Shown: positions 27,522-53,595 of the stretch, in pieces
Position numbering within the stretch: position 1 is the first letter of the stretch
How the letters are laid out: every line of letters begins with the position of its first letter
IMG/VR virus record: IMGVR_UViG_3300050821_018577
Coordinates: 1-64,000 of that record
Origin: a virus
Reading direction: 5' to 3' (one strand)
Length of the DNA stretch: 64,000 nucleotides
Position numbers and translations under genes: made by a program
Notes under the pieces: model-generated
What the model saw: the letters and a program-made list of their open reading frames with translations, nothing else
What the model was told of the DNA's origin: nothing
Databases searched by the model: none

Positions 27522-28619
27522 ATGAAGCGCGCTTTCCTAGTTGCCGGGCTTGGCTGGGGTGACGAATCGAAAGGGGCAACGACTGATTTTTTGACCTGGA
27601 AGTATGGAGCTGGTCTTGTAGTTAGATATTCGGGCGGTTCCCAATGCGGCCATAATGTCGTGACTCCCGACGGCCGTCATCACACCTTCCAACAATTCGG
27701 CGCCGGCATGTTCCATCCAGGTATCCGGACGCATCTCTCGCGGTTCATGCTGATAAACCCGATGAACATGATGCGCGAGGAAGAACATTTGCGCGAAGTC
27801 GGCATCACCGATGCCTGGGAGCGGACGTCAGTGGATCCGCGCGCGTTAATCATCACGCCATTCCATCGAGAGCTGAATCGTGCGATGACGCCGGCAGGCA
27901 CGACCAGTTGCGGCCATGGAGTAGGTGTATGCCGCGAAATGCACCTGGCTTATGGCGACCGAGTTTTATTTGCCGGCGACCTGCTGGACAAAGAAAAGAC
28001 GATTACAAAATTGCAGTGGACCCAATTAAAATGCTTAGAAAAATTTGCAATCGAGTCAAGGGCGTGGCCCATACCAGAAGCCCTTAAAGACCTTCAAATG
28101 TCAGAACTCTGTTGGGACTGGTACAAAGACTGGCGCGAACTGGTTCAAATTCGCCATCTCACCGGAATGCTTGACCACGAAACCATCATCTTTGAAGGGG
28201 CCCAGGGCGTGCTGCTCGATGAAACCCACGGCGATGAAGGTTTCAACACTTGGACGGACACGACGTTCAACAATGCGAATACACTGCTCGATGAAGCCGG
28301 CTTCGATGGCCAACGCACCCGGGTTGGCGTCATCCGGACTTACTACACGCGGCACGGCGCCGGGCCGTTTCCGACCGAGGATCCGGCGTTAAACTATCCC
28401 GAACCGCACAACGAAGATTCCGGCTATCAGGGCAAGTTCCGCCGCGGCAAGTTCGATGATGCCCTGTTTCATAAGGCTCTAGACATTTGTGGTGGGATCG
28501 ATTGGCTGGCCGTGAACCATATAGACCGGTTCGATTTGAGTCCGGAGGGCTATTACAAGTGGCACAACATCTTCGGGTACGGCCCGACCTGTAAAGACCG
28601 CCAAGAGAGTTGGCGATGA
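27522..28619 (+). CDS. adenylosuccinate synthetase-like protein (PurA family)
   Basis: GLGWGDESKG, RYSGGSQCGHNV, SCGHGVG, FEGAQGVLLD, RTYYTRHGAGPFPTE. Confidence 0.88.
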   Translation: MKRAFLVAGLGWGDESKGATTDFLTWKYGAGLVVRYSGGSQCGHNVVTPDGRHHTFQQFGAGMFHPGIRTHLSRFMLINPMNMMREEEHLREVGITDAWERTSVDPRALIITPFHRELNRAMTPAGTTSCGHGVGVCREMHLAYGDRVLFAGDLLDKEKTITKLQWTQLKCLEKFAIESRAWPIPEALKDLQMSELCWDWYKDWRELVQIRHLTGMLDHETIIFEGAQGVLLDETHGDEGFNTWTDTTFNNANTLLDEAGFDGQRTRVGVIRTYYTRHGAGPFPTEDPALNYPEPHNEDSGYQGKFRRGKFDDALFHKALDICGGIDWLAVNHIDRFDLSPEGYYKWHNIFGYGPTCKDRQESWR

Positions 28620-28816
28620 AAGTAAGCGAGTGGCTTCGTAAATACCAGATTACCGGTGCAGTCCCAGATGAAAAAGGCCTGAGCATGGATTCCACCGACG
28701 CTGTCTTTGCCTTCTGGTGCGGCTGGCTCATGCGCGAAACAATGCTCACAAGGACTATAGACGACCAACTTGCGATGGCCATCAGGGCCGCCGAATTCAT
28801 CGAGGCACAGAAATGA
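28616..28816 (+). CDS. hypothetical protein
   Basis: ATGA overlaps. Confidence 0.5.
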   Translation: MKVSEWLRKYQITGAVPDEKGLSMDSTDAVFAFWCGWLMRETMLTRTIDDQLAMAIRAAEFIEAQK

Positions 28817-29022
28817 ATTTTCTAGTGAAAATCAATGGCGGAGTAAACGACGGCCGACAATTCATCGTCGAGAACAAAACCACCTGGGAAGAAGCCGGCG
28901 ATGAGATTTGCACCAAGCTTGGGCTGCGCCGCGACGACTACGACTTTCTGACGGTAATTCAGTTACCCTTAACTTCCGGCAAAGAATATGAGGTAAAAGG
29001 AGACTTAGATGCAATTCATTGA
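28813..29022 (+). CDS. hypothetical protein
   Basis: ATGA overlap. Confidence 0.5.
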   Translation: MNFLVKINGGVNDGRQFIVENKTTWEEAGDEICTKLGLRRDDYDFLTVIQLPLTSGKEYEVKGDLDAIH

Positions 29023-30190
29023 GAACATCCCTGTATGGGGCAAGCCCGACGATGGTGCGCTATCGCAGATTAAAACCTGCGCGCAAACAGCCGACAAGGT
29101 TGCACTGATGGCTGACCATCATCGTGGCTATGCCGTACCAATCGGCGGCGTCGTAGCCTACCGCGATTCCATCAGTCCGAGCGGCGTTGGATTTGACATC
29201 GCGTGCGGCAACAAAGCCGTGCTCACGGACATGCCCGGCGAAGCTCTGCGCAATAACATCCACGCGGTCATGGATGCCATCTGGAAAACCATCAGCTTCG
29301 GCGTAGGCGGCACAAACAACGAGCAGGTAGACCATTCGCTCTTTGCGCGTGATGCTCATCCCGGGTGGAATACGGATGCCGCCAAACCGTTGAAGCGGAT
29401 GGCGCAAGAGCAGCTCGGCACGGTCGGTTCGGGTAATCACTACGTCGATGTATTCACCGACGAACTGGACCGCGTGTGGGTCGGCGTGCACTTCGGCTCC
29501 CGCGGGCTAGGCCATAAAATCGCCACCTGGTTCCTGAACGCTGCCGGGGCAAAAGACGGCATGGACGTCGAGCCATGCGTCCTGAAAGCCGAATCGGATC
29601 TCGGAGCACAATACCTCTCGGCCATGGACCTGGCCGGAAAGTATGCCTATGCCGGCAGGGATTGGGTTTGCCAGCGCGTAGCGGCCATCCTGGGGGCCAA
29701 AGTCCTCGAGGAAGTCCATAACCACCATAACTTCGCTTGGCGCGAAATCCATGGCGGCGAGCACTATTGGGTCGTCCGCAAAGGGGCTACCCCGGCTTTT
29801 CCAGGGCAGAAAGGCTTTGTTGGCGGGACTATGGGCGAAATCTCCGTCATCCTCGAAGGCATAGAGAACGAAGCCGCGAAGTATTCGCTCTACAGCACCG
29901 TGCACGGCGCCGGCCGGGTCATGGGGCGGTCGGAAGCGAAAGGCAAGGTCGACCGCAAGACCGGGGAAGTAAAGCGAGTCGGAAAAGTCACCCAACAAAT
30001 GATGGACGGTTGGGTACAGCGTGCGAACATCGAACTGCGCGGCGCCGGCCTGGATGAATCACCAGACTGTTACAAACGCCTGCCGGATGTTTTGGCAGAG
30101 CACGGAGACAGCATCAGGATTTTACACACATTGACACCGGTTGGGGTAGCGATGGCGTCCGCTCACGAAAAAGACCCCCACAAGGACTAG
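29009..30190 (+). CDS. rtcB: RtcB family RNA ligase
   Basis: MADHH.GYAVPIGGV, GFDIACG, GTVGSGNHY, HFGSRG, HNHHN, RKGATP, HGAGR, DESPDCYK. Confidence 0.95.
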   Translation: MQFIENIPVWGKPDDGALSQIKTCAQTADKVALMADHHRGYAVPIGGVVAYRDSISPSGVGFDIACGNKAVLTDMPGEALRNNIHAVMDAIWKTISFGVGGTNNEQVDHSLFARDAHPGWNTDAAKPLKRMAQEQLGTVGSGNHYVDVFTDELDRVWVGVHFGSRGLGHKIATWFLNAAGAKDGMDVEPCVLKAESDLGAQYLSAMDLAGKYAYAGRDWVCQRVAAILGAKVLEEVHNHHNFAWREIHGGEHYWVVRKGATPAFPGQKGFVGGTMGEISVILEGIENEAAKYSLYSTVHGAGRVMGRSEAKGKVDRKTGEVKRVGKVTQQMMDGWVQRANIELRGAGLDESPDCYKRLPDVLAEHGDSIRILHTLTPVGVAMASAHEKDPHKD

Positions 30191-42959: not shown

Positions 42960-43226
42960 TTATGGCTGGTAGCCGCACTGATTACAACGCACGATTACCC
43001 TCGGGCTGCCCTGTGCCACGAATGTGTCCGCAATCGTCAAGGCTGTACTACGGCATTTCGGACATGCCAGTCCGGCCAGCACCAGGTTCTCTCTCGCGAC
43101 CCGCGCCAATTCCACAGCCTTGGCCAAAAGAACAGCGGCCGCTTTTTTGATTACGTCTTTAGATTCTTTCTTTGGCGCCTTCTTCGGCGCTTTCTTTGCT
43201 ACTCGTTTCGCAGAAGTTTTTGCCAT
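42960..43226 (-). CDS. Lys/Ala-rich N-terminus plus Zn ribbon
   Basis: GGAGG RBS; KKAPKKAPKK; CPKC, CNQC. Confidence 0.65.
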   Translation of the reverse strand: MAKTSAKRVAKKAPKKAPKKESKDVIKKAAAVLLAKAVELARVARENLVLAGLACPKCRSTALTIADTFVAQGSPRVIVRCNQCGYQP

Positions 43227-43294
43227 TGGGAACCTCCCAAATAGTACGCTATCACCATTTAGTTCCGGTTGGTCTGTATAAAATAGGACACTAC

Positions 43295-44269
43295 TTACTT
43301 TTTGGCTTTTACGGCCTCTTGTTCTTCGGCGAGCGTCGAGGCCGGAAACACCGCGGACTTGAGCCCGGTGAAAGCGCCGGTGCCGGCGACGTCGGCTTCG
43401 TCTTTGTCTTTCATGCCAAACCACGGCCCTGTGTAAGTCTCGCTGGTGGCTGGCTTCGGTACTTTTTTGCCAGTGATTTCCTCGAAGGCTTCGGCGTTCA
43501 CCAGATACATGGCAAACGTTGCGGCCGGCTTCTCCTGCCAAACCTCGAGGCCGTGTGGATCCGAATAGACCTTTTGGATGATTTTCCCGCCGCGACCGAC
43601 GCCCATTTCACCCATGGACTGGCCGCGCGCTCCGCTTCGCTTAACGAGACTCGCGCTCGGCGCTAGGTGGCTGGTAGCTATGAGCGAATGACTGCCGTAA
43701 GACAAATTTGCGCCCATTGGATAGTTGAATTCGTCGCTGTCGAGGTCCGAGGCCCAGCCTTCATGCGGCAGGATCTTCGACTTGAGCTTGCTCGGATCCG
43801 TAGGTTCGAACAACGCGATGCCGATGGCGCCTGTCTTTGACTCTTCGCCGAGCAGCTGCTCGGCGACAGAGATGCCTTTGCCCTTCTGGTACGGCGTGGC
43901 CACAAATTGATAGACCGTGCCGTCCTGGTCTTTCCAGCCATCAAGCCACGGCTGCGGCGGCGTGACGAGGTAGTTGTCTTTGGCGAGCGTAGTGCCGAGT
44001 TTGTCGCCAGTGAGTGCGTTGATGCCGCCAGCGCCGATGAGCAAAGCGACCGGATGCTTGGTTGAAAAACTCATCCACAACGCTTCGGTGTCATGGAGCG
44101 CGACAAAGCACGCTTCGGCTTCCCAGGTGGATGGGCATTTATCCGCGTAGTCTTTTACGCGGAACACTTCCATTCTTCCGAGGCTTGGCGGCAGGTTTGA
44201 CGGTTTTCTTCCGTCCGGGACTCTTACGGTTCGATGAAACGTTACTTCTAACGATGGACTGATTCTCAT
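43295..44269 (-). CDS. conserved hypothetical protein (family I recall from actinobacteria and fungi)
   Basis: TFHRTVRVPD..NLPPSLG, EALWMSF, NYLVTPPQPWLDG, QFVA; AAGGAG RBS. Confidence 0.8.
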   Translation of the reverse strand: MRISPSLEVTFHRTVRVPDGRKPSNLPPSLGRMEVFRVKDYADKCPSTWEAEACFVALHDTEALWMSFSTKHPVALLIGAGGINALTGDKLGTTLAKDNYLVTPPQPWLDGWKDQDGTVYQFVATPYQKGKGISVAEQLLGEESKTGAIGIALFEPTDPSKLKSKILPHEGWASDLDSDEFNYPMGANLSYGSHSLIATSHLAPSASLVKRSGARGQSMGEMGVGRGGKIIQKVYSDPHGLEVWQEKPAATFAMYLVNAEAFEEITGKKVPKPATSETYTGPWFGMKDKDEADVAGTGAFTGLKSAVFPASTLAEEQEAVKAKK

Positions 44270-44461: not shown

Positions 44462-45169
44462 ATGCGCCAAGACATGAAAGACCTGTTGGTGAACACTGGC
44501 CGGTCCGGAGACTATGCCAAAAGCCGGCGTGCGCGTTTCAAGCACGCGGATCCGGAGCTTTTGCCTCGCCGTATCAGTCAGGCCACGTTTGGTTGGTATG
44601 CGAGAAGCCAGGGCGACCGGCTGGCGCCGCTTCGCCGGTTCCTCGAAGTGAACTGCGGCCGGCCCTGGGCGGACATCTACTCCGAAATCTGCGCGGTGTC
44701 GGACGCCAGAACCATTCGCGGATACCATCTCCGCGAGCATGTCCACCAATACGTTCGCCAATACGAACATGACCTTGGCCAACGCGCTTGGGGATCGTTC
44801 TTTGTCGGCGCGGATGGCATCCTGCACCAAGAGTCTAGGCTGACGAACGCGGAACGTGCCGCCCGCTGGAAGAACAGTTTGCAGTGGGACCCAAAAGAAA
44901 AAAAATGGAAACTGCCCAAGCCGCCCAATCCTAAAGTCACAGACAACGCAGACCGCTGGTGGGAAAAGATTGAAGGCTATTGGTACGAGTTCACTGTGAC
45001 TCACATCAAGACCACTTACCCAGTTGAATGGCTCATCGACCGCGGAAATAATGTGGTGGATATCGGTCGCGAATTAAAAGAAAGAATCTTTGATAAGACC
45101 ATCAAGCGCCAGGTGGATTCCAAGACCATCAAAAAACTCGAAGCGATGCTGCGGTCGAAGGTCGCATGA
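44462..45169 (+). CDS. hypothetical protein
   Basis: LAPLRRFLEVNCGRPWADIYSEIC pattern. Confidence 0.75.
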   Translation: MRQDMKDLLVNTGRSGDYAKSRRARFKHADPELLPRRISQATFGWYARSQGDRLAPLRRFLEVNCGRPWADIYSEICAVSDARTIRGYHLREHVHQYVRQYEHDLGQRAWGSFFVGADGILHQESRLTNAERAARWKNSLQWDPKEKKWKLPKPPNPKVTDNADRWWEKIEGYWYEFTVTHIKTTYPVEWLIDRGNNVVDIGRELKERIFDKTIKRQVDSKTIKKLEAMLRSKVA

Positions 45170-45381
45170 AGATACGCTCAATCGTCGGCAAGACCATCAA
45201 ATCCGCTGAGGCCACAACTCACGAAGCTTCGGATAGTTGTGTATTTGCAACCATTGAATTCAGGTTCACCGATGGCTCGATGTACAGTTTATGTCTGCAA
45301 GCTCTACCTCAAGTCCATGGAATGCTTTTCAAGAGCGATAACGATGACAACGCTACGGAAGTGGAGTTGGTCAAGCCGTGA
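45166..45381 (+). CDS. hypothetical protein
   Basis: ATGA overlaps. Confidence 0.6.
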   Translation: MKIRSIVGKTIKSAEATTHEASDSCVFATIEFRFTDGSMYSLCLQALPQVHGMLFKSDNDDNATEVELVKP

Positions 45382-46103
45382 AGCCGGCAAACTTTCTTCG
45401 CACCGTAGGATTCAAAGACCTCAAGAAAAACAAGCTAACTGTCATTTCCCTGTTCAGTGGCTGCGGCGGCATGGATCTCGGCTGTATGCAAGCGGGCCTC
45501 GAAGTGCGGGTGATGATTGACAACGAGAAAACCTGCTGCGAGACGCTATACGAGAATTTTGTCAAACGGTCTTTATATCGAAAGCGGGCTCCGGTTCCGG
45601 CCATCCTGCACCGGGACATTTGCCAAACGCCCACGTCGATGATACTCGATGCGGCTAAGCTGCAGGTCGGTGAAGCGGGCGTAGTGACCGCAGGATTCCC
45701 TTGCACGGGATTCAGCTTGGCTGGCAAGCGCAGAATCGATGACCCACGCAACAAACTCTACTTGGAATGTGTGCGGGTCATACGTGAGGCGCTACCGCGG
45801 TTCTTCATTTTAGAGAATGTCCCAGGACTTATCTCCATGGACAAGGGCCGGATCATCGACCGCATTTGCCGGGATCTCGCCTGCTGCGGCTACGATGTGC
45901 ACTGGCAGAAGCTGAATGCCGCGGACTACGGCGTGCCGCAGAATCGCATCCGCGTTTTCTTCATCGGCCAGCGCGTCGATATGCTCTATTGGAACGGCAA
46001 AGACAATCCGCAATTGCACATGGGCTGCGGAGGCCGCTACAAGCATCCGGAATTTTTCGAGAAGAAGTACAAAATCGAATCGTATTGGCCGGAGGCGGCG
46101 TGA
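45378..46103 (+). CDS. DNA (cytosine-5) methyltransferase, N-terminal half only
   Basis: ISLFSGCGG (I), GFPCTGFS (IV), ENV (VI), QNRIRVF (VIII); no TRD or motifs IX/X. Confidence 0.85.
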   Translation: MKPANFLRTVGFKDLKKNKLTVISLFSGCGGMDLGCMQAGLEVRVMIDNEKTCCETLYENFVKRSLYRKRAPVPAILHRDICQTPTSMILDAAKLQVGEAGVVTAGFPCTGFSLAGKRRIDDPRNKLYLECVRVIREALPRFFILENVPGLISMDKGRIIDRICRDLACCGYDVHWQKLNAADYGVPQNRIRVFFIGQRVDMLYWNGKDNPQLHMGCGGRYKHPEFFEKKYKIESYWPEAA

Positions 46104-46441
46104 TGCGCCTATGGCTCGACGATATTCGAGAGCCATGGAAGCACGGCTGTGTCGGTTGGGATTGGGCCAAGACCGCCGAGGAAGCTATCGCATTTCTGCG
46201 CACCGGCACGGTCACCATCGCTTCGCTCGACCATGACCTAACTCCAGAGCAAACGCTTGGTGGAATCTACGGCGTAATTAAGACGGACGGCCAGAAGTCA
46301 GGATACGACGTTGTGGTGTGGCTTGAAGAACATCCAGAATTCTGGCCTGCGGACGGTGTTCGCGTGCATTCGATGAATCCCGCCGGCCGCAAACGGATGC
46401 TGCAGGTGATTGAACGTCATTACAATGAGCGCACCGGCTAG
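46103..46441 (+). CDS. cyclic-phosphate processing receiver domain protein
   Basis: LWLDDIRE, SLDHDL, SGYDVVVW, VHSMNPAGR. Confidence 0.85.
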   Translation: MRLWLDDIREPWKHGCVGWDWAKTAEEAIAFLRTGTVTIASLDHDLTPEQTLGGIYGVIKTDGQKSGYDVVVWLEEHPEFWPADGVRVHSMNPAGRKRMLQVIERHYNERTG

Positions 46442-47037: not shown

Positions 47038-47115
47038 TGGAGCGCCTGACGGGATTCGAACCCGCAACCCTTCGCCCTAGGAGACGAATGCTCTGCGCAG
47101 TTGAGCTACAGGCGC
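47038..47115 (-). tRNA. atypical tRNA (Arg-CCT-like) with 8-nt anticodon loop CUCCUAGG
   Basis: GCGCCTG/CAGGCGC acceptor, T73, encoded CCA, T-loop TTCGAAT, anticodon stem TTCGT/GCGAA, D-loop lacks GG. Confidence 0.75.
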
Positions 47116-47219: not shown

Positions 47220-47723
47220 ACTGGCTCGCCCGGTGTGACTTGAACACACATCGTCAGCTTTAGAGGCTGCTGCACTGGCCGGTTGTGCTACAGGCGAACT
47301 GAAATCTGGAGCCGCTGGCAGATTACGAGTCTGCGGCCTCTCGGTTAAAACCGAGTGCTCTTTATCGGAAGAAACTTCCGGTCGATGCTGAGCTACAGCG
47401 GCGTGGTTGTAAACTCGATAGTTGGCCAGCGCCTTGCGCTGCTCGCCGGCGATCGGGCTCGTCGCAATTGCGGTGAGCTCGTCATTGAAGTCAGGCTCGT
47501 GCCAAGAAAAATGCGGGATGTTATTGGCGCATAGCTTTGCTTCCGCGCGGCGAAGCGACGCCAAGTGCGGCAGGCCAATCAAAACCATATTGGGAATTCC
47601 TTCTTCACAACGAAGCGAGGCAACGTGGAAGGAGGCATGAGCGGTCTGAATAATTTGCGCAGGGATGGGGATGTCGGTTCGAACGAACAGGAAAACGTAG
47701 CGGTCGTCGCTTATCTATGTCAT
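47184..47723 (-). CDS. PTH2-like (peptidyl-tRNA hydrolase) protein with in-frame TAG at codon 3; frame runs into tRNAs
   Basis: ATG ACA TAG ATA...YVFLFVRTDIPIPAQIIQTAHAS...WHEPDFNDELTAIA; in frame with track ORF 47184..47588. Confidence 0.65.
47222..47297 (-). tRNA. amber suppressor tRNA (anticodon CTA)
   Basis: 76 nt cloverleaf: TCGCCTG/CGGGCGA, D-arm GCAC/GTGC with GG, loop CT-CTA-AA, T-arm GTGTG-TTCAAGT-CACAC, G73, CCA. Confidence 0.88.
47307..47402 (-). tRNA. degenerate Lys(TTT)-like tRNA with enlarged D-loop
   Basis: GCCGCTG/CAGCGGC + T + CCA; 6-nt loop TTTTAA; D-loop carries extra CGGAAG/CTTCCG hairpin; T-loop CTCGTAA. Confidence 0.55.
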
Positions 47724-47729
47724 GGTCAA

Positions 47730-47759
47730 ACTGTGCCAGAACTGCGGATTCGGTGTCAA
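47730..47759 (-). promoter_or_regulatory. candidate promoter giving a leaderless PTH2-like/tRNA transcript
   Basis: TTGACA-18-(TGn)CACAGT, 6 nt before ATG 47723; no SD. Confidence 0.45.
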
Positions 47760-47761
47760 CT

Positions 47762-47797
47762 AAAAACCGAAGCGCCGTTCACACGCGGCGCCTCGGT
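47762..47797 (-). terminator. terminator after terminase gene
   Basis: ACCGAGGCGCCG/CGGCGCTTCGGT stem then TTTT on minus. Confidence 0.6.
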
Positions 47798-47914
47798 CAT
47801 TACTTCCTATCCCCGCAGAGAGTCTATCATGGAACCTTCCAATTTTCGAACGGTTGCTCTTGCGCTCGCGGCCACCAGCGGACACGCAAACCGCGGAAGC
47901 CAGGGATCACGAAC

Positions 47915-48078
47915 GGCATGGCGTGGCAAGTTAAGGTACGGCGGGGTGCGGCATGGCTGCGAGTGGACAAGGAGCGGCGTGAGAAGGCGGGCGCGGTGCG
48001 GTCCCGCAAGGCATGGCAAGGCCGGGCGAGTAATGGCCTGGTGAGGCAAGGCGGGCATGGTGTGGCGTGGCGTGGTTA
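47915..48078 (+). repeat. GGY-NN pentamer array (about 30 units)
   Basis: ggcat ggcgt ggcaa gttaa ggtac ggcgg ggtgc ggcat ggctg ... ggcat ggcaa ggccg ggcga gtaat ggcct ggtga ggcaa ... ggcat ggtgt ggcgt ggcgt ggtta. Confidence 0.85.
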
Positions 48079-49749
48079 TTATTTTTCCAATTGAATTCGT
48101 CTGCCGCCGAGCGGTCGCTGAATTACTTGCGTGCAATCATAATTTTGACCGCAATGATTACAGTGACGGGAATTTGCAATGGTGACCTGCATCGTGACTT
48201 CATTGCAGTTCGGGCACCTCGGCGTTTGGTCGTTGGTCATGACAGCGGCCAATGATGTCGCGCCAGCCACTTTTTCAAGCGACGTGGTCTTTCCGGTCAC
48301 GGTGTTAGTAAAAGTGACCCGGCCAACCAGCGGCGGAGCATCATCGCCATTGCGAACCGGTGTTCTTGGTATTGGTTGACGTCCCATCATTTTCTCCGCG
48401 CGTCCGGACTTAAACAAATCGAGCAGCCCTAGGGCCCCGGCGCCGGAGAGCTCCGTTCCTACCCAGACCATGGCGTCAAGTCGGTTCGGCGATTTTTGTC
48501 CTGGCTGTGCGCAATAGCTGACCAATTCTTCTTCGAGCGCAGAAAACTCGGTACATTGAGGCTTGCCGCAACTGCAAACCAGGTGCATTTTGTTTTGCTG
48601 GAACAGCGCAAGGATCGGCTCGGCGCGCACCAGCTTGCCGCGGGATGCGCTCACATCATGGTAAGAGACGTTTTCATCCACATTGCGGATGGTCTCTTCA
48701 ACCATGTCCCCACCGTAGTTTCTCTCAGCGATGATGCGGTCAGCTGCGTAGCCGTAGTAGGTGCGGATGGCCGTGGTCGCCCAATCCCGCGGCCGCGCTG
48801 CGCGCATGGAATCGTCGTGGAGAATGTAGATATGCCCGTCCTCGCCTTCACCGCCGGTCATGATGCCTACTTCGGTCATGTTGCCGCCAGAAGGATCGAT
48901 GCCCACTACGATGCGCCGCAAACGAATCTCCTGGTCGCTGGTCAACAATGAGCCGGCATTGTAGCTGGCGGTCACGCGGCTATCCTCGATAATTTTCCGC
49001 GTCCACAACGCACCGGGAATCTCTTCGGTGTCCTCGGCCAGAATTTCTTGCCGATAGGCCAGCGAACTCATGTTGTGGGTGACTTCCTCGAGGCCTTCTT
49101 TTGAAAGATGTGGATTGGCGGAACTCGGGAAATGCAGGCACAGCCACAATGGGTCGTTCTTGTACTTCTTGAACATCTTGGCGGCGTGCTGCGGATCTCG
49201 GGCTTTGCTGGCGCTGCGCGTCTCAAGCGATGGTGGCGTGTAAATGAACACCACGTCGCCGTTGTTATCAATCAGCATGGGCGCGCCGACTTCGGTCCAT
49301 GCCGTTTCATCCATCATCTGGTATTCATCGAGAATCAAAAGGTCGGCATAATCACCGCGAAGCGTTTCGGCGTTGAACGCGGTCTTTGCCCGTATTCTGC
49401 GGTCGGTGCCGCGCTGTTCGATGATGTGTTCGGTTTCGTTTTTATACAGCCGGCCAAAGGCGATTGGTTCATCGAGAGCCAGCAGCACTTCTTTCCAGAA
49501 TTTCTTCACCTGGTCGATCGTGGGCGCGGCGTAGAGCACGCGCTTGCCTTTGAGAAATTGTTCCACAGCAAGGATTGCTGAACCAGTCGTCTTTCCAGAG
49601 CGTCTTCCAGCGCGAATGATTTTTCGTTTAAGTGGCGACCGGCAAAATCGCAACTGATATGGATTGTCCGCGGGATTGCGCAGATTGATTTTGAACTGCT
49701 GGGGCTTTGGCGCTTCGGCGTCTGGCGGAATTATGGGATTGGAAGCCAT
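48079..49749 (-). CDS. terL: terminase large subunit with C-terminal Zn-ribbon extension
   Basis: Walker A AGRRSGKT, Walker B LILDEY, nuclease VVGIDPSG, SPNRLDAMVW. Confidence 0.9.
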   Translation of the reverse strand: MASNPIIPPDAEAPKPQQFKINLRNPADNPYQLRFCRSPLKRKIIRAGRRSGKTTGSAILAVEQFLKGKRVLYAAPTIDQVKKFWKEVLLALDEPIAFGRLYKNETEHIIEQRGTDRRIRAKTAFNAETLRGDYADLLILDEYQMMDETAWTEVGAPMLIDNNGDVVFIYTPPSLETRSASKARDPQHAAKMFKKYKNDPLWLCLHFPSSANPHLSKEGLEEVTHNMSSLAYRQEILAEDTEEIPGALWTRKIIEDSRVTASYNAGSLLTSDQEIRLRRIVVGIDPSGGNMTEVGIMTGGEGEDGHIYILHDDSMRAARPRDWATTAIRTYYGYAADRIIAERNYGGDMVEETIRNVDENVSYHDVSASRGKLVRAEPILALFQQNKMHLVCSCGKPQCTEFSALEEELVSYCAQPGQKSPNRLDAMVWVGTELSGAGALGLLDLFKSGRAEKMMGRQPIPRTPVRNGDDAPPLVGRVTFTNTVTGKTTSLEKVAGATSLAAVMTNDQTPRCPNCNEVTMQVTIANSRHCNHCGQNYDCTQVIQRPLGGRRIQLEK

Positions 49750-51003: not shown

Positions 51004-53595
51004 TCATGGATGGCACGCATATTTTTGCTGCGGTATGGTAGCGCGCAGGCCGGTCGAGGCATCAAGCTCTGTCAGTGTTTCCAAACAGACTGGAGTGACA
51101 CTGACCCCGGTTCCGGATAGAGGCGCGTTGTTCGGGCTGGTCGAAGCGTTCGTCGTGAAAATCAAGTTCGCGTTGTGCACCCCAGGCGTTGTCGGATTGA
51201 AGGTGACGCTCACAATGCAATTATTTCCGATGGCCAAGGTTGCGCCACAGGTGTTCGCCGAAATCGCGTAGTTGGTCGCGTCGCTCGGGGCGATGCTGGT
51301 GATGTTCAGTGTCGCCGTGCCTGTGTTGGTCAACGTCACGGTCTGCGCAGCGGAAACCTTTCCAACGTTCACCGCACCGAAGCTCAAACTCGTTGGATTC
51401 AAGGAGACCACTGGCGCGTTTGGCGGTGGAACTGTTCCCCACACCGGCCCCGCATCCGTAATGGTCATGCTCTCCACGGTGGTTGCCAACGTAGTCGTGG
51501 CGCCGGCCGCTTTCACCGTTCCGCCGGTTGAAGCCGTCCCCTTGAAAATTGTCGCTACGTCGTTGGCGTCAAGGGTAACCGTCCAGTTCGTCCCGTTGTC
51601 TACGATGCTCGGCGTGAGCGCGACGAATCCGGAAATGTCTCCGAGCTGAATTGCGTTGACCTGGTAGCTGACCACGTTTCCGGGGTTGGTATTGTTCGAT
51701 TCGATGCGGTACTGCCACTCTCCTGTAGCGATGACAGGCGTCGGTCCGGAGGAGCTCACGTTCTCCGCGAAGGTGGAAATAGTCGGCGCCGTAGGAAGTA
51801 ATGCCGTGTAGAGCGCCCGCTGCGTGCCATCGTTGCAGGTGACTTGCGCGCCGCTGACGGATGGACTTGTTTCGCAGTGAGTTACGAAAGTCGTGCTGGT
51901 GCCCGAGGCCGTAGTTTGGATGCGGTCCACGACCAGCAGGACGTTGATGCCGCGGAAGTAGAGATATTCCCTGACGACCGAAACGACGTTCTGATTCTGG
52001 CGTGTGGGATTGCCAGCGTCGCAGACGTGGTTCTGATAGACCAACGTGAGGTCGGTTACGGCGTAGGCGTAGTTGGTCTGCGATTCGAGCCGCTTGATGA
52101 TTCCAGGACCGTCCGAGCAACCTTGTGAAATGTTCTGTGCTTGCCCGCCGACGAAGGGGATGTTATGCGCGAAACCTTCGTATACGTTCGCACAGCCCCC
52201 GGACAGGCACGCGCCGCCGTATCCGGCAACCGTTTCCGAGTAACCCATCGTTTCACGGATAATGTTCACGCCCTTGCGCGAGCACTGAAAGGTTCCAGCA
52301 TCCCAGTGCGAGTGTCCACTACCCCATGCCTGCGCTCCTGGATTAGTGCCCTTGGTGACCCCCATTTGCAAAAGGCAGGTGGTACCCGTCGACGTCCAAG
52401 TATCGTGTAGGTACAGATAGTTTGCACCCGATGCGTAGTAGTCGAGCGGAAGATTCGAGAACGCCAAAGAGGAGCCGCCCGGATCTACGGAGCGGAACAT
52501 CGGTCCGACTGCGGGCTTCACCGTCCCAAGCCACTGACGCGCGTACTTTCCTATATTCGTTGCGGCGTATTCGCCCGCCGCAGCGGTCATAAAGTCGCCG
52601 TAATACTGAGACTCCATCATGCAACCGCCGGTGGCGTTGGCGTTTCCGGTGGAGTTATGGCTCTGAAAGGCACAGGTATCCGCAGCAACCCACTGCTCAT
52701 CATCAGACGCCGTGAACCCATCCCATACCGACCGCGGTGAGGCCGTCCGCTGCAGCACGGTGTTGTAAATCGTAGTTAGTACGCCCGACTTGAAGGCAGT
52801 CGTTTCGTTCCACAGGTCACGGCCCAAAAGCGCCGAGGAAGCGAGCGCGGCGGCATAATAGTCGAGCGAGTAGCGGCCATATTCCGCGGCACCCTCTTGG
52901 TTGTGAAAGGCGTAGCCGTAGGCGCCGTTTCTTCCTGTTCCGGTCGGAGAATCGAAGTTCAGCAGGTCTACCCATCGACTGTTCATCGCGTACTGGAGAT
53001 TTGCATCCGCGCTGGCATTGGTGATGTAGCTGGCGATTCCGAAAGTGAAGTCATTACGGAACTGGCCAGCGAAATAATTACTTGCCGGCATCCCCACGTT
53101 GCCCCAAGTCTGCGTTACGGTATCTTGGCCGTTCTGCCAGGTGTTCCAGTTCGTTTCCAGAGTGGTGACCTGTCCAGCCGTGAGGCACGCCGCAAGACCA
53201 CATCCGGGCGCGAGCCAGTCGCGGATGAGCAACATCATCTCGCCTTGTACGCGCATGGCATCGCAGCCCGGCCCGGTGTAGCAGCCCGAGGAAGGCGCGA
53301 ACCCGGTGGTGTCAGTGATGGCCTGGGCGCACGCGGCCGCTTGTGCACTCGGTGGCCCGTTGATGCAGGTAAACGCGATATCGTAATCGTCAAGGTTGCG
53401 CGTGTTGGCGGTTTGGCCAAGATAGCCAGTGCTCGTCACCCACGCCTTGGCAGTCGTGATGCGCGCGGGAGTCCAGAACAGGCGAGGATGCGCGTTTGGA
53501 AAAGTTAATCCATAGGCGGTAGTGGTTTGCGAATACCCCGTATTGGCGAACAGAAGAGTGACAGCGGTGACGCAAATGAGAACGCGCAGTCTCAT
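51004..53595 (-). CDS. secreted heparinase II/III-like (polysaccharide lyase-type) protein with C-terminal ASPM/choice-of-anchor-D Ig domain
   Basis: Sec signal; HPRLF N-terminal motif; GHSHWDAGTFQ; C-terminal LNPTSLSFG...VTLTNTGTATLNI. Confidence 0.7.
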   Translation of the reverse strand: MRLRVLICVTAVTLLFANTGYSQTTTAYGLTFPNAHPRLFWTPARITTAKAWVTSTGYLGQTANTRNLDDYDIAFTCINGPPSAQAAACAQAITDTTGFAPSSGCYTGPGCDAMRVQGEMMLLIRDWLAPGCGLAACLTAGQVTTLETNWNTWQNGQDTVTQTWGNVGMPASNYFAGQFRNDFTFGIASYITNASADANLQYAMNSRWVDLLNFDSPTGTGRNGAYGYAFHNQEGAAEYGRYSLDYYAAALASSALLGRDLWNETTAFKSGVLTTIYNTVLQRTASPRSVWDGFTASDDEQWVAADTCAFQSHNSTGNANATGGCMMESQYYGDFMTAAAGEYAATNIGKYARQWLGTVKPAVGPMFRSVDPGGSSLAFSNLPLDYYASGANYLYLHDTWTSTGTTCLLQMGVTKGTNPGAQAWGSGHSHWDAGTFQCSRKGVNIIRETMGYSETVAGYGGACLSGGCANVYEGFAHNIPFVGGQAQNISQGCSDGPGIIKRLESQTNYAYAVTDLTLVYQNHVCDAGNPTRQNQNVVSVVREYLYFRGINVLLVVDRIQTTASGTSTTFVTHCETSPSVSGAQVTCNDGTQRALYTALLPTAPTISTFAENVSSSGPTPVIATGEWQYRIESNNTNPGNVVSYQVNAIQLGDISGFVALTPSIVDNGTNWTVTLDANDVATIFKGTASTGGTVKAAGATTTLATTVESMTITDAGPVWGTVPPPNAPVVSLNPTSLSFGAVNVGKVSAAQTVTLTNTGTATLNITSIAPSDATNYAISANTCGATLAIGNNCIVSVTFNPTTPGVHNANLIFTTNASTSPNNAPLSGTGVSVTPVCLETLTELDASTGLRATIPQQKYACHP

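What the first reader, a model, noticed from the sequence alone, without database searches (positions are those of the whole stretch)
47915..48078. GGY-NN pentamer array resembling VIPR-type guide RNA, orphan in this window
Seen: about 30 consecutive 5-nt units, most being GGC or GGT plus a variable dinucleotide (at gt aa aa ac gg gc at tg / gt aa gg gc gc cc / at aa cg ga at ct ga aa g at gt gt gt ta), with a few phase slips. It lies in a non-coding gap directly against the terminase stop codon, and overlapping ORFs are only G/A/R/W-rich artefacts. From memory, recently reported phage VIPR systems use RNAs of alternating GGY/NN in which the NN pairs spell a gapped DNA target, bound by a Cas7/RAMP-like protein; this recollection should be verified. 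I recognise no RAMP-like ORF within these 64 kb, so the array is either orphan or served in trans. Alternatives are a two-tetrad G-quadruplex element or a packaging-related site.
Basis: partly seen in the sequence, partly recalled or inferred. Interest (0 to 1): 0.8.

Follow-up and report, generated by a model that had tools for sequence, protein, structure and literature searches.

The report
Guide-RNA array without its protein
A 179-kb uncultured soil phage carries a 164-base array of five-letter GGY-NN repeats built like the guide RNAs of the recently described VIPR system, but no gene for the Vipr protein that uses such guides; it is most likely a "solo" guide array, a kind already reported in 2026.

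Summary
On the + strand, 47915-48078 holds 33 consecutive units, 26 of them GGY+NN. Nineteen GGY sit in one phase, against a mean of 4.7 and a maximum of 11 in 20,000 shuffles. It is the only such array in the complete 178,858-bp genome.

VIPR is real literature (three bioRxiv preprints, 2026). The array has the vrRNA hallmarks: fixed GGY, variable NN, codon-like NN composition, unstructured RNA. Two 4-nt units (GGCG) split it into three modules, as in the "staggered" arrays I found beside vipr genes in IMG/VR.

No vipr gene was found anywhere in the genome by a Vipr HMM, 82 single-sequence searches, phrog_4652 or profile-profile comparison of all 829 ORFs. The same HMM found a Vipr beside 82 of 120 control arrays.

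No target was found above shuffled controls, and no related phage carries a homologous array. Expression, target and NN turnover therefore remain untested.

Best reading: a vipr-less solo vrRNA-type array that could act only with a Vipr supplied in trans. A decaying relic is the main rival.

Solo vrRNAs are already in print (Oct 2026). This scan has noted VIPR-like arrays in at least 120 other genomes, one of them an orphan guide, so this is a new member of a known kind.

The parts
47915..48078 (+). Whole GGY-NN pentamer array: 33 units, 26 of them GGY. It is vrRNA-like in sense on the + strand.
   Evidence: Unique in the genome. In-phase GGY count is far above shuffles.
47915..47989 (+). Module g1 (75 nt). 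Nine good units with NN = AT GT AA AA AC GG GC AT TG, then a 6-nt slip, five mostly degenerate units and the 4-nt unit GGCG.
47990..48053 (+). Module g2 (64 nt). Twelve units with NN = GC GC CC AA AT AA CG GA AT CT GA AA, closed by the 4-nt unit GGCG.
   Evidence: The direct repeat D3 (47984-48001 and 48048-48065, 83% identical, 64 nt apart) marks both module boundaries.
48054..48078 (+). Module g3, short or truncated. Five units with NN = AT GT GT GT TA, running into TTATTATTTTT and the terminase stop codons.
47765..47798 (-). Strong intrinsic terminator on the minus strand (13-bp stem, 9 GC pairs, then a T run). The terminase mRNA therefore probably carries the C-rich complement of the array as a 3' UTR.
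48079..49749 (-). Terminase large subunit gene (context), convergent with the array.
   Evidence: Terminase_6N and Terminase_6C; phrog_2 at 2.6e-29.
47298..47723 (-). Pth2-like gene with TAG as its third codon, followed by suppressor tRNA genes (context only).
   Evidence: earlier notes e1-5807917 and e1-5807929.

Best explanation
The array is a VIPR-type guide-RNA (vrRNA) array that has no vipr gene of its own, a 'solo' array.

It is built of three modules of GGY-NN pentamers separated by 4-nt GGCG units. This is the layout of 'staggered' vrRNA arrays.

If it is transcribed from the + strand, each GGY would be gripped by Vipr protomers and the exposed NN pairs would spell a DNA target read as NNxNNx. 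The phage encodes no Vipr, so the RNA could act only on a Vipr made by another element in the same cell: a VIPR-positive prophage, a rival phage or a host defence VIPR. It would redirect or soak up that machinery, as shown in E. coli for satellite solo vrRNAs and predicted there for vipr-null phages.

Shown here: the array, its architecture and the absence of a recognisable vipr. Inferred: + strand transcription, loading in trans and the biological role.
For: (1) GGY is fixed and NN variable, with a strict 5-nt period far above chance.

(2) GGY-NN arrays are a specific VIPR signature. Of 120 IMG/VR loci with at least 10 perfect units, 82 have a Vipr (E 1e-5 to 1e-82) on the same strand within about 700 nt. 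Six more have one elsewhere on the contig.

(3) The layout is shared with Vipr-linked arrays. These are split by 4-nt slip units (92 cases: GGCA 86, GGCG 3). Ours has two GGCG slips 64 nt apart, each after an xxxAA unit.

(4) NN composition is codon-like. N1 is 81% purine and N2 69% A/T. The best-fitting model is sense codon positions 1-2, at +5.7 bits over background. The same trend holds in 2,694 units of Vipr-linked arrays, where N1 is 64% purine. This fits the published rule that the skipped base falls on the wobble position.

(5) GGY integrity is 0.79, within the range of Vipr-linked arrays (median 0.86; a third are at or below ours).

(6) The + strand RNA is no more structured than shuffles (z = +1.2), as expected for a protein-held single-stranded guide.

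(7) No vipr is present in a genome rated 100% complete.
- HMM: best hit 11 bits, on a 92-aa ORF.
- phmmer with 82 Viprs: nothing significant.
- phrog_4652: none.
- hhalign of all 829 ORFs of at least 90 aa: at most 14% probability, while the three weakest true Viprs score 80-90%.

(8) Solo vrRNAs are documented: 346 vipr-null phages and satellites (10.64898/2026.10.15.759431). Nine of 15 further IMG/VR contigs with arrays have no Vipr, including a 45-kb contig rated 100% complete and a 105-kb contig rated 93% complete.
Against: - No sigma-70-like promoter lies upstream on the + strand, even with relaxed criteria.
- The array is antisense to both flanking genes. The only strong transcription signal nearby, a minus-strand terminator, implies that the complement is transcribed.
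- No target was found. There were no self matches, no matches in 1.1 Mb of VIPR loci, and no exact NNx matches in IMG/VR or GTDB genomes. The exceptions were three chance-level hits in unrelated genes.
- There is no conserved structured 3' tail like that of type II vrRNAs.
- The boundary unit is the rare GGCG, not the usual GGCA.
- The 3' half of module g1 is degenerate.
- No relative carries the array or a VIPR locus, so descent from a VIPR-positive ancestor is not shown.
Confidence: 0.5

Rival explanations
1. The array is a dead relic: a vrRNA array left behind after loss of vipr, or picked up as a fragment by recombination. It is no longer expressed or used and is slowly decaying.
For: - No vipr in the genome.
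- No + strand promoter.
- Seven of 33 units are degenerate, and these are clustered in the 3' half of module g1.
- Module g3 has only five units and runs into the terminase stop.
- The boundary units differ by one base from the canonical GGCA.
- No target was found.
Against: - GGY is still far better kept than NN (entropy 0.24-1.1 against 1.7-1.9 bits). Neutral decay would erode all five positions alike.
- GGY integrity of 0.79 lies inside the range of arrays that sit beside an intact vipr.
- No vipr pseudogene or fragment is visible next to the array or elsewhere.
Confidence: 0.25
2. The array is not VIPR-related. It is a G-rich pentamer repeat with a DNA-level or minus-strand role. Candidates are two-tetrad G-quadruplex or i-motif DNA near the packaging gene, a pac-related site, or a C-rich 3' UTR element of the terminase mRNA.
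For: - It directly abuts the terminase gene.
- It lies between the terminase stop and a strong minus-strand terminator, so the C-rich complement is the RNA most surely made.
- GG-N3-GG spacing allows two-tetrad quadruplexes.
- Terminase relatives carry two or three GGCAG-like units at the same spot.
Against: - About ten terminase relatives (51-68% identity) have no array after the gene, so it is not a conserved packaging element.
- Quadruplex formation needs only GG runs. It explains neither the pyrimidine kept at position 3, nor the codon-like NN, nor the 4-nt GGCR module boundaries shared with Vipr-linked arrays.
Confidence: 0.15
3. The system is complete. A very divergent Vipr, or a non-RAMP partner, is encoded elsewhere in the 179-kb genome and escaped sequence searches.
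For: - RAMPs are notoriously divergent, and Vipr was found by structure.
- Many ORFs of this phage have no annotation. One example is the 235-aa protein at 44462-45169, on the same strand 2.7 kb upstream, which has no Pfam or PHROG hit.
Against: - The published family was collected by PSI-BLAST from one seed.
- My profile found Viprs beside canonical GGC-type staggered arrays (L111, L099, L062) at E about 5e-11 to 9e-9, but nothing here.
- In 82 of 82 positive loci the vipr lies within about 700 nt of the array on the same strand. Here both neighbours are known genes on the other strand.
- The ESM Atlas model of the 235-aa protein has no RAMP-like neighbour.
Confidence: 0.07

Closest known systems
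Solo (vipr-null) vrRNAs of SUSP1-family phages and F5 satellites (Lopez et al., bioRxiv 10.64898/2026.10.15.759431)
   Same: A GGY-NN guide array is carried by a mobile element that has no vipr gene. The presumed action is through a Vipr supplied by another element.
   Different: - Those phages are close kin of VIPR-positive SUSP1 and share a defined 1,114-bp vipr-vap1 deletion. Here no relative has VIPR or an array.
- They carry 1-2 type II vrRNAs with a pseudoknot tail. Here there are three tail-less staggered modules.
- Their guides have predicted targets (vipr, vrRNAs, satellites). None was found here.
- The host range differs: Enterobacteriaceae there, an uncultured soil phage of unknown host here.
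Staggered vrRNA arrays of VIPR systems
   Same: GGC-rich pentamer runs of 9-14 units are separated by a 4-nt unit that shifts the register by one. There is no long structured tail between guides.
   Different: - Those arrays directly follow a vipr gene on the same strand.
- Their 4-nt unit is GGCA in 86 of 92 cases. Ours is GGCG, which occurs in 3 of 92.
- Ours has only two full modules plus a stub.
Type II VIPR of Escherichia phage SUSP1 (vipr = ALH47069.1, PDB 36pp; vap1 = ALH47068.1)
   Same: Alternating GGY/NN units; phage-borne.
   Different: SUSP1 vrRNAs are GGT-rich, about 100 nt long, have 9-16 units plus a conserved pseudoknot tail, and flank vipr-vap1. None of these features applies here.

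Membership tests
VIPR vrRNA (guide array) | Tandem 5-nt units of GGY plus a variable dinucleotide, at least 4 units (the papers' calling rule) | tested here: met
   26 of 33 units are GGY-NN. 19 lie in one phase against at most 11 in 20,000 shuffles.
VIPR vrRNA (guide array) | GGY conserved while NN is hypervariable | tested here: inconclusive
   Within the array the feature is met: entropy is 0.24, 0.39 and 1.10 bits for GGY against 1.70 and 1.87 bits for NN. Across homologous arrays it could not be tested, because no related phage has the array.
VIPR vrRNA (guide array) | A vipr (RAMP) gene in the same locus | tested here: not met
   No Vipr was found in the whole genome by HMM, phmmer, phrog_4652 or hhalign. 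The same HMM found a Vipr beside 82 of 120 control arrays.
VIPR vrRNA (guide array) | Conserved structured 3' tail after 9-16 units (type II), or another typed architecture | tested here: inconclusive
   There is no structured tail. The layout fits the staggered type through two 4-nt slip units, but these are the rare GGCG rather than GGCA.
VIPR vrRNA (guide array) | Natural target matching at least 80% of NN positions by the 1-nt skip rule, above null | tested here: not met
   - Own genome and 1.1 Mb of VIPR loci: nothing at or above the shuffled-guide null.
- Exact patterns: 0 hits in IMG/VR for A9, B12 and B1-9, and 0 hits in GTDB genomes for B12.
- Pattern B4-12: 3 hits in unrelated genes, at chance level.
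- Mismatch-tolerant scans of host genomes were not possible.
VIPR vrRNA (guide array) | Expressed as a small RNA that co-purifies with Vipr | not testable with these tools
   No expression data are available. No + strand promoter was recognised.
Solo vrRNA of a vipr-null phage (Oct 2026 preprint) | vrRNA-type array in a mobile element whose genome lacks vipr | tested here: met
   CheckV rates the genome 100% complete, and it has no recognisable vipr.
Solo vrRNA of a vipr-null phage (Oct 2026 preprint) | Derived from a VIPR-positive relative by loss of vipr-vap | tested here: inconclusive
   The nearest relatives (terminase 51-68% identical) have neither array nor Vipr, but they are distant and incomplete.
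Pentanucleotide microsatellite | One unit repeated, with all positions diverging alike | tested here: not met
   13 different NN dinucleotides occur among 26 units, while GG is nearly invariant. True microsatellites in the IMG/VR sample look different (L080, L132, L139, L140).
Packaging (pac/cos) site next to terminase | Conserved among phages with related terminases | tested here: not met
   About ten related loci have no array after the terminase gene. The pattern anchored on the terminase end found nothing in IMG/VR.

The most novel reading that the evidence does not exclude
Guide-only carriage is a general strategy outside enterobacterial phages. This large soil phage would use its solo array to commandeer or decoy a Vipr made by its host's defence VIPR or by a resident prophage, as an RNA-only counter-weapon.

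In my IMG/VR sample, 9 of the 15 whole contigs tested that had arrays but no nearby vipr also lacked vipr altogether. Two of these are near-complete genomes. The phenomenon may therefore be widespread.
Probability: 0.3. Interest if true: 0.55.

Novelty: new member of a known kind. Interest (0 to 1): 0.35.

Why it matters
VIPR is a months-old field, and solo guides have so far been described only for SUSP1-like enterobacterial phages and their satellites.

A vipr-less, staggered-type array in an unrelated 179-kb soil phage, together with other vipr-less array-bearing contigs in IMG/VR, suggests that guide-only elements are common in environmental viromes. It also shows that array-based VIPR detection will pick up many loci without a protein.

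The finding supplies three natural guide modules whose targets could be sought in the source metagenome. It does not reveal a new mechanism.

Tried and rejected
**vipr search**
- SUSP1 Vipr as a single query against the genome found nothing.
- Weak Vipr-like hits were examined and dismissed:
  - The 92-aa ORF at 76382-76660 scores 11 bits, covers only profile positions 89-159, and lacks the G-loop and helix-1.
  - ORFs 2147-2686, 42960-43541 and 52346-52654 have phmmer E of 0.009-0.05 per query before correction for 82 queries. They align to different parts of Vipr, and one lies in a wrong frame inside another gene.
- The 235-aa neighbour P0122 has no Pfam or PHROG family, a low-confidence Atlas model and no RAMP-like neighbours.

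**Homologous arrays**
- Terminase and Pth2 relatives in IMG/VR and in metagenomes have none.
- A pattern anchored on the terminase end found none.
- blastn against cultured phages gave only a 40-nt chance hit.
- The 6-unit match in relative G006 lies inside coding sequence and is chance.

**Targets**
- These are covered in the membership test. The three 18/18 hits for guide units 4-12 fall in a 112-aa protein, a scaffold-like protein and the antisense strand of a capsid-like gene. They match only 2-3 of 6 further positions, so they are chance.
- No guides are shared with other arrays.

**Host**
- Terminase relatives in GTDB MAGs are at 50-52% identity in three different phyla, so no host handle was obtained.
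- Relatives cannot be drawn for a virus record, so mismatch-tolerant scans of host genomes were not run.

**Other checks**
- Rfam (ribozymes and other families) gave no hit at E of 1 or below.
- The idea that the minus-strand complement acts as a sponge for rival guides aimed at this phage was rejected. Such guides would have to match this genome, and no self match exists.
- No structure prediction or complex prediction was run. No candidate justified one.

Full report
**1.

Reading 47500-48500 and parsing from 47915 in steps of five gives:
- nine units, eight of them GGY (47915-47959);
- a 30-nt degenerate stretch (47960-47989);
- twelve units plus a 4-nt unit GGCG (47990-48053);
- five more units in the new register (48054-48078).

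After that come TTATTATTTTT and the terminase stop codons.

Allowing the slips, 26 of 33 units are GGY. Nineteen GGY sit in one phase, against a mean of 4.7 and a maximum of 11 in 20,000 shuffles of the same 164 nt.

Positions 1-3 carry 0.24, 0.39 and 1.10 bits of entropy, and positions 4-5 carry 1.70 and 1.87 bits. The GGY frame is therefore kept while NN is free, which a decaying microsatellite would not show.

The window is the first 64 kb of a single 178,858-bp IMG/VR record rated 100% complete. A scan of both strands finds no second array. The ORFs over the array are G/R/W-rich artefacts without credible family hits.

**2. Context**

On the minus strand the order is:
- terminase large subunit, 49749 to 48079;
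- the array;
- a 116-nt spacer;
- a strong intrinsic terminator, 47798 to 47765;
- a Pth2-like gene starting at 47723 with TAG as its third codon (earlier notes e1-5807917 and e1-5807929);
- two tRNA genes, one with anticodon CUA.

The GGY sense is on the + strand, antisense to both neighbours. The RNA most surely made across the array is its C-rich complement, as a terminase 3' UTR. No sigma-70-like + strand promoter was found, even with relaxed criteria. This counts against independent expression, though promoter rules for this uncultured phage are unknown.

**3. VIPR is real and the recollection was right**

Three 2026 preprints describe it.
- Discovery paper (10.64898/2026.04.26.720920). 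vrRNAs have 9-16 YNNGG units. GGY is bound by the RAMP-like Vipr, and NN pairs read a DNA target with one skipped base (NNx), mostly the wobble position of codons. There are seven types, including staggered arrays, ribozyme-interspersed arrays and single-vrRNA systems.
- Structure paper (.720927).
- Lopez et al. (10.64898/2026.10.15.759431). Satellites and 346 vipr-null SUSP1-like phages carry solo vrRNAs.

A fourth preprint finds 99 period-5 clusters, 76 of them next to a Vipr-like gene. An orphan array is therefore a known category.

**4. Is there a vipr?**

I located the SUSP1 system at KT454805, with vipr at 28474-29061. It matches PDB 36pp 'SUSP1 Vipr protein'. I collected 120 relatives and built an HMM. 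It found nothing in the 1,563 six-frame ORFs of this genome.

To learn how far that HMM reaches, I scanned IMG/VR for at least 10 perfect GGY-NN units (120 loci).
- In 82 loci the HMM finds a Vipr at E 1e-5 to 1e-82, always on the array's strand and within about 700 nt.
- These include Viprs beside GGC-type staggered arrays (L111, L099, L062) at E about 5e-11 to 9e-9.
- The family is phrog_4652.

A profile enlarged with these 82 Viprs again finds nothing convincing here. The best hit is 11 bits on a 92-aa ORF covering only profile positions 89-159. Other searches were also negative:
- phmmer with each of the 82 Viprs gives nothing significant after correction.
- phrog_4652 finds nothing.
- hhalign of all 829 ORFs of at least 90 aa gives at most 14% probability. 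The three weakest true Viprs reach 80-90% against the narrower profile.

I conclude that the genome has no recognisable vipr. A fold-level screen of all ORFs was beyond the budget and remains the decisive check.

**5. Does the array look like arrays that do have a Vipr?**

Yes, in four respects.

(a) Architecture. Vipr-linked arrays are often cut into guides of 9-14 units by a 4-nt unit that shifts the register by one. Among 92 such slips, 86 are GGCA and 3 are GGCG. Ours has two GGCG slips, at 47986-47989 and 48050-48053. Each follows an xxxAA unit and lies inside an 18-nt direct repeat 64 nt apart. The array is thus three modules: g1 of 75 nt, g2 of 64 nt and a 25-nt stub g3. The first two units of the three modules also resemble each other (AT GT, GC GC, AT GT), which suggests modules made by duplication.

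(b) NN composition. N1 is 81% purine and N2 69% A/T. Of six codon registers, the sense position 1-2 model fits best, at +5.7 bits over background. The 2,694 units of Vipr-linked arrays show the same trend, with N1 64% purine and base frequencies close to codon position 1. Read as codons, g2 spells A-A-P-(K/N)-(I/M)-(K/N)-R-(D/E)-(I/M)-L-(D/E)-(K/N).

(c) GGY integrity is 0.79, against a median of 0.86 in Vipr-linked arrays, a third of which are at or below ours.

(d) The + strand RNA is not more structured than shuffles (z = +1.2), and no Rfam family matches.

The differences are the rare boundary unit, the absence of a structured tail, and the degenerate 3' half of g1.

**6. Solo arrays elsewhere**

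Of the 38 IMG/VR loci without a Vipr in the fetched stretch:
- Five are plain microsatellites.
- Thirty-three are heterogeneous arrays sitting beside ordinary phage genes such as SNF2 helicase, radical SAM, methyltransferase, AAA_24 and capsid. Their orientation relative to neighbours is mixed, with 6 of 21 antisense to both, as here.

I searched 15 of these contigs whole. Six have a Vipr elsewhere and nine have none. The nine include a 45-kb contig with terminal repeats rated 100% complete and a 105-kb contig rated 93% complete. Vipr-less array carriers therefore exist beyond the published SUSP1 family.

**7. Tests that gave nothing**

- Homologous arrays. About ten terminase relatives (51-68% identity) and one Pth2 relative have no array. 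The relatives show only two or three GGCAG-like units at the same spot. A pattern anchored on the terminase end found no other contig. Two related IMG/VR contigs have neither Vipr nor array. NN against GGY turnover could therefore not be measured.
- Targets. There is no self match above the shuffled-guide null for skips of 0-2, and none in 1.1 Mb of VIPR loci. Exact NNx patterns gave 0 hits in IMG/VR and GTDB genomes, apart from three hits for units 4-12. Those lie in unrelated genes, match only 2-3 of the 6 remaining positions, and number about what chance predicts.
- Host. It could not be pinned down, so mismatch-tolerant scans of host genomes were not possible.

**8. Verdict**

The array is best read as a solo, staggered-type vrRNA array (confidence about 0.5). 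If active, it would work only with a Vipr supplied in trans.

The rivals are:
- a decaying relic (0.25);
- a non-VIPR G-rich element, or a role for the minus-strand UTR (0.15);
- an undetected divergent partner in the genome (0.07).

The kind is already in print, and this scan has many VIPR notes, including an orphan guide in a Felix O1-type phage. This is therefore a new member of a known kind, of moderate-to-low interest. Its main added value is the indication that guide-only carriage reaches large environmental phages.

Noticed in passing
window 47038-47115 (-) and 47222-47297 (-): Two phage tRNA genes lie just left of the array. One has anticodon CUA (amber suppressor). The other has an 8-nt anticodon loop that ARAGORN reads as 'ccta'. 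The adjacent Pth2-like gene has TAG as its third codon. Others in this scan have already noted this.
   Followed up: partly
window 45378-46441 (+): A C5 DNA methylase ORF stops at 46103 after matching only positions 2-165 of the 324-position Pfam profile. At that point a cREC_REC (cyclic-phosphate processing receiver) domain begins in another frame, within ORF 45866-46441. This could be a split gene, a frameshift or an odd fusion. With TAG read as Gln, the second frame extends to 46918.
   Followed up: no
L021 about 620-960 (Ga0307475_10072773): In one terminase relative, the space after the terminase gene holds at least five copies of a roughly 25-nt hairpin-like repeat (GTTCCATYCTTTCCTCGRAYGGACA). 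They are separated by 20-32 nt of unique sequence, which gives a mini-array look.
   Followed up: no
L011, L013, L015, L017, L018, directly after the terminase stop: Relatives carry two or three GGCAG/GGCAA-like units on the opposite strand, at the exact position where this phage has its array. This could be a seed or a remnant of an array. The run is too short for statistics.
   Followed up: partly
IMG/VR loci L041 (contig G009, 45 kb, terminal repeats, 100% complete) and L077 (G002, 105 kb, 93% complete): These near-complete viral genomes have GGY-NN arrays of at least 10 units and no phrog_4652 (Vipr) match anywhere. They are candidate solo-vrRNA phages outside the published SUSP1 family.
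   Followed up: partly
IMG/VR Vipr-linked arrays (L022-L141): The 4-nt register-shifting unit between guides is GGCA in 86 of 92 cases. In some systems (L099, L062, L115) the last two or three units before it are semi-conserved, for example GGCAA GGCAT GGCA. This suggests a short 3' handle in staggered arrays.
   Followed up: partly
genome 76382-76660 (+), outside the window: A 92-aa ORF next to the portal gene ends in the RRIVVEE-type C-terminal motif that another note reports on several proteins of this phage. It gave the best Vipr-profile score (11 bits), which I judge to be chance.
   Followed up: partly
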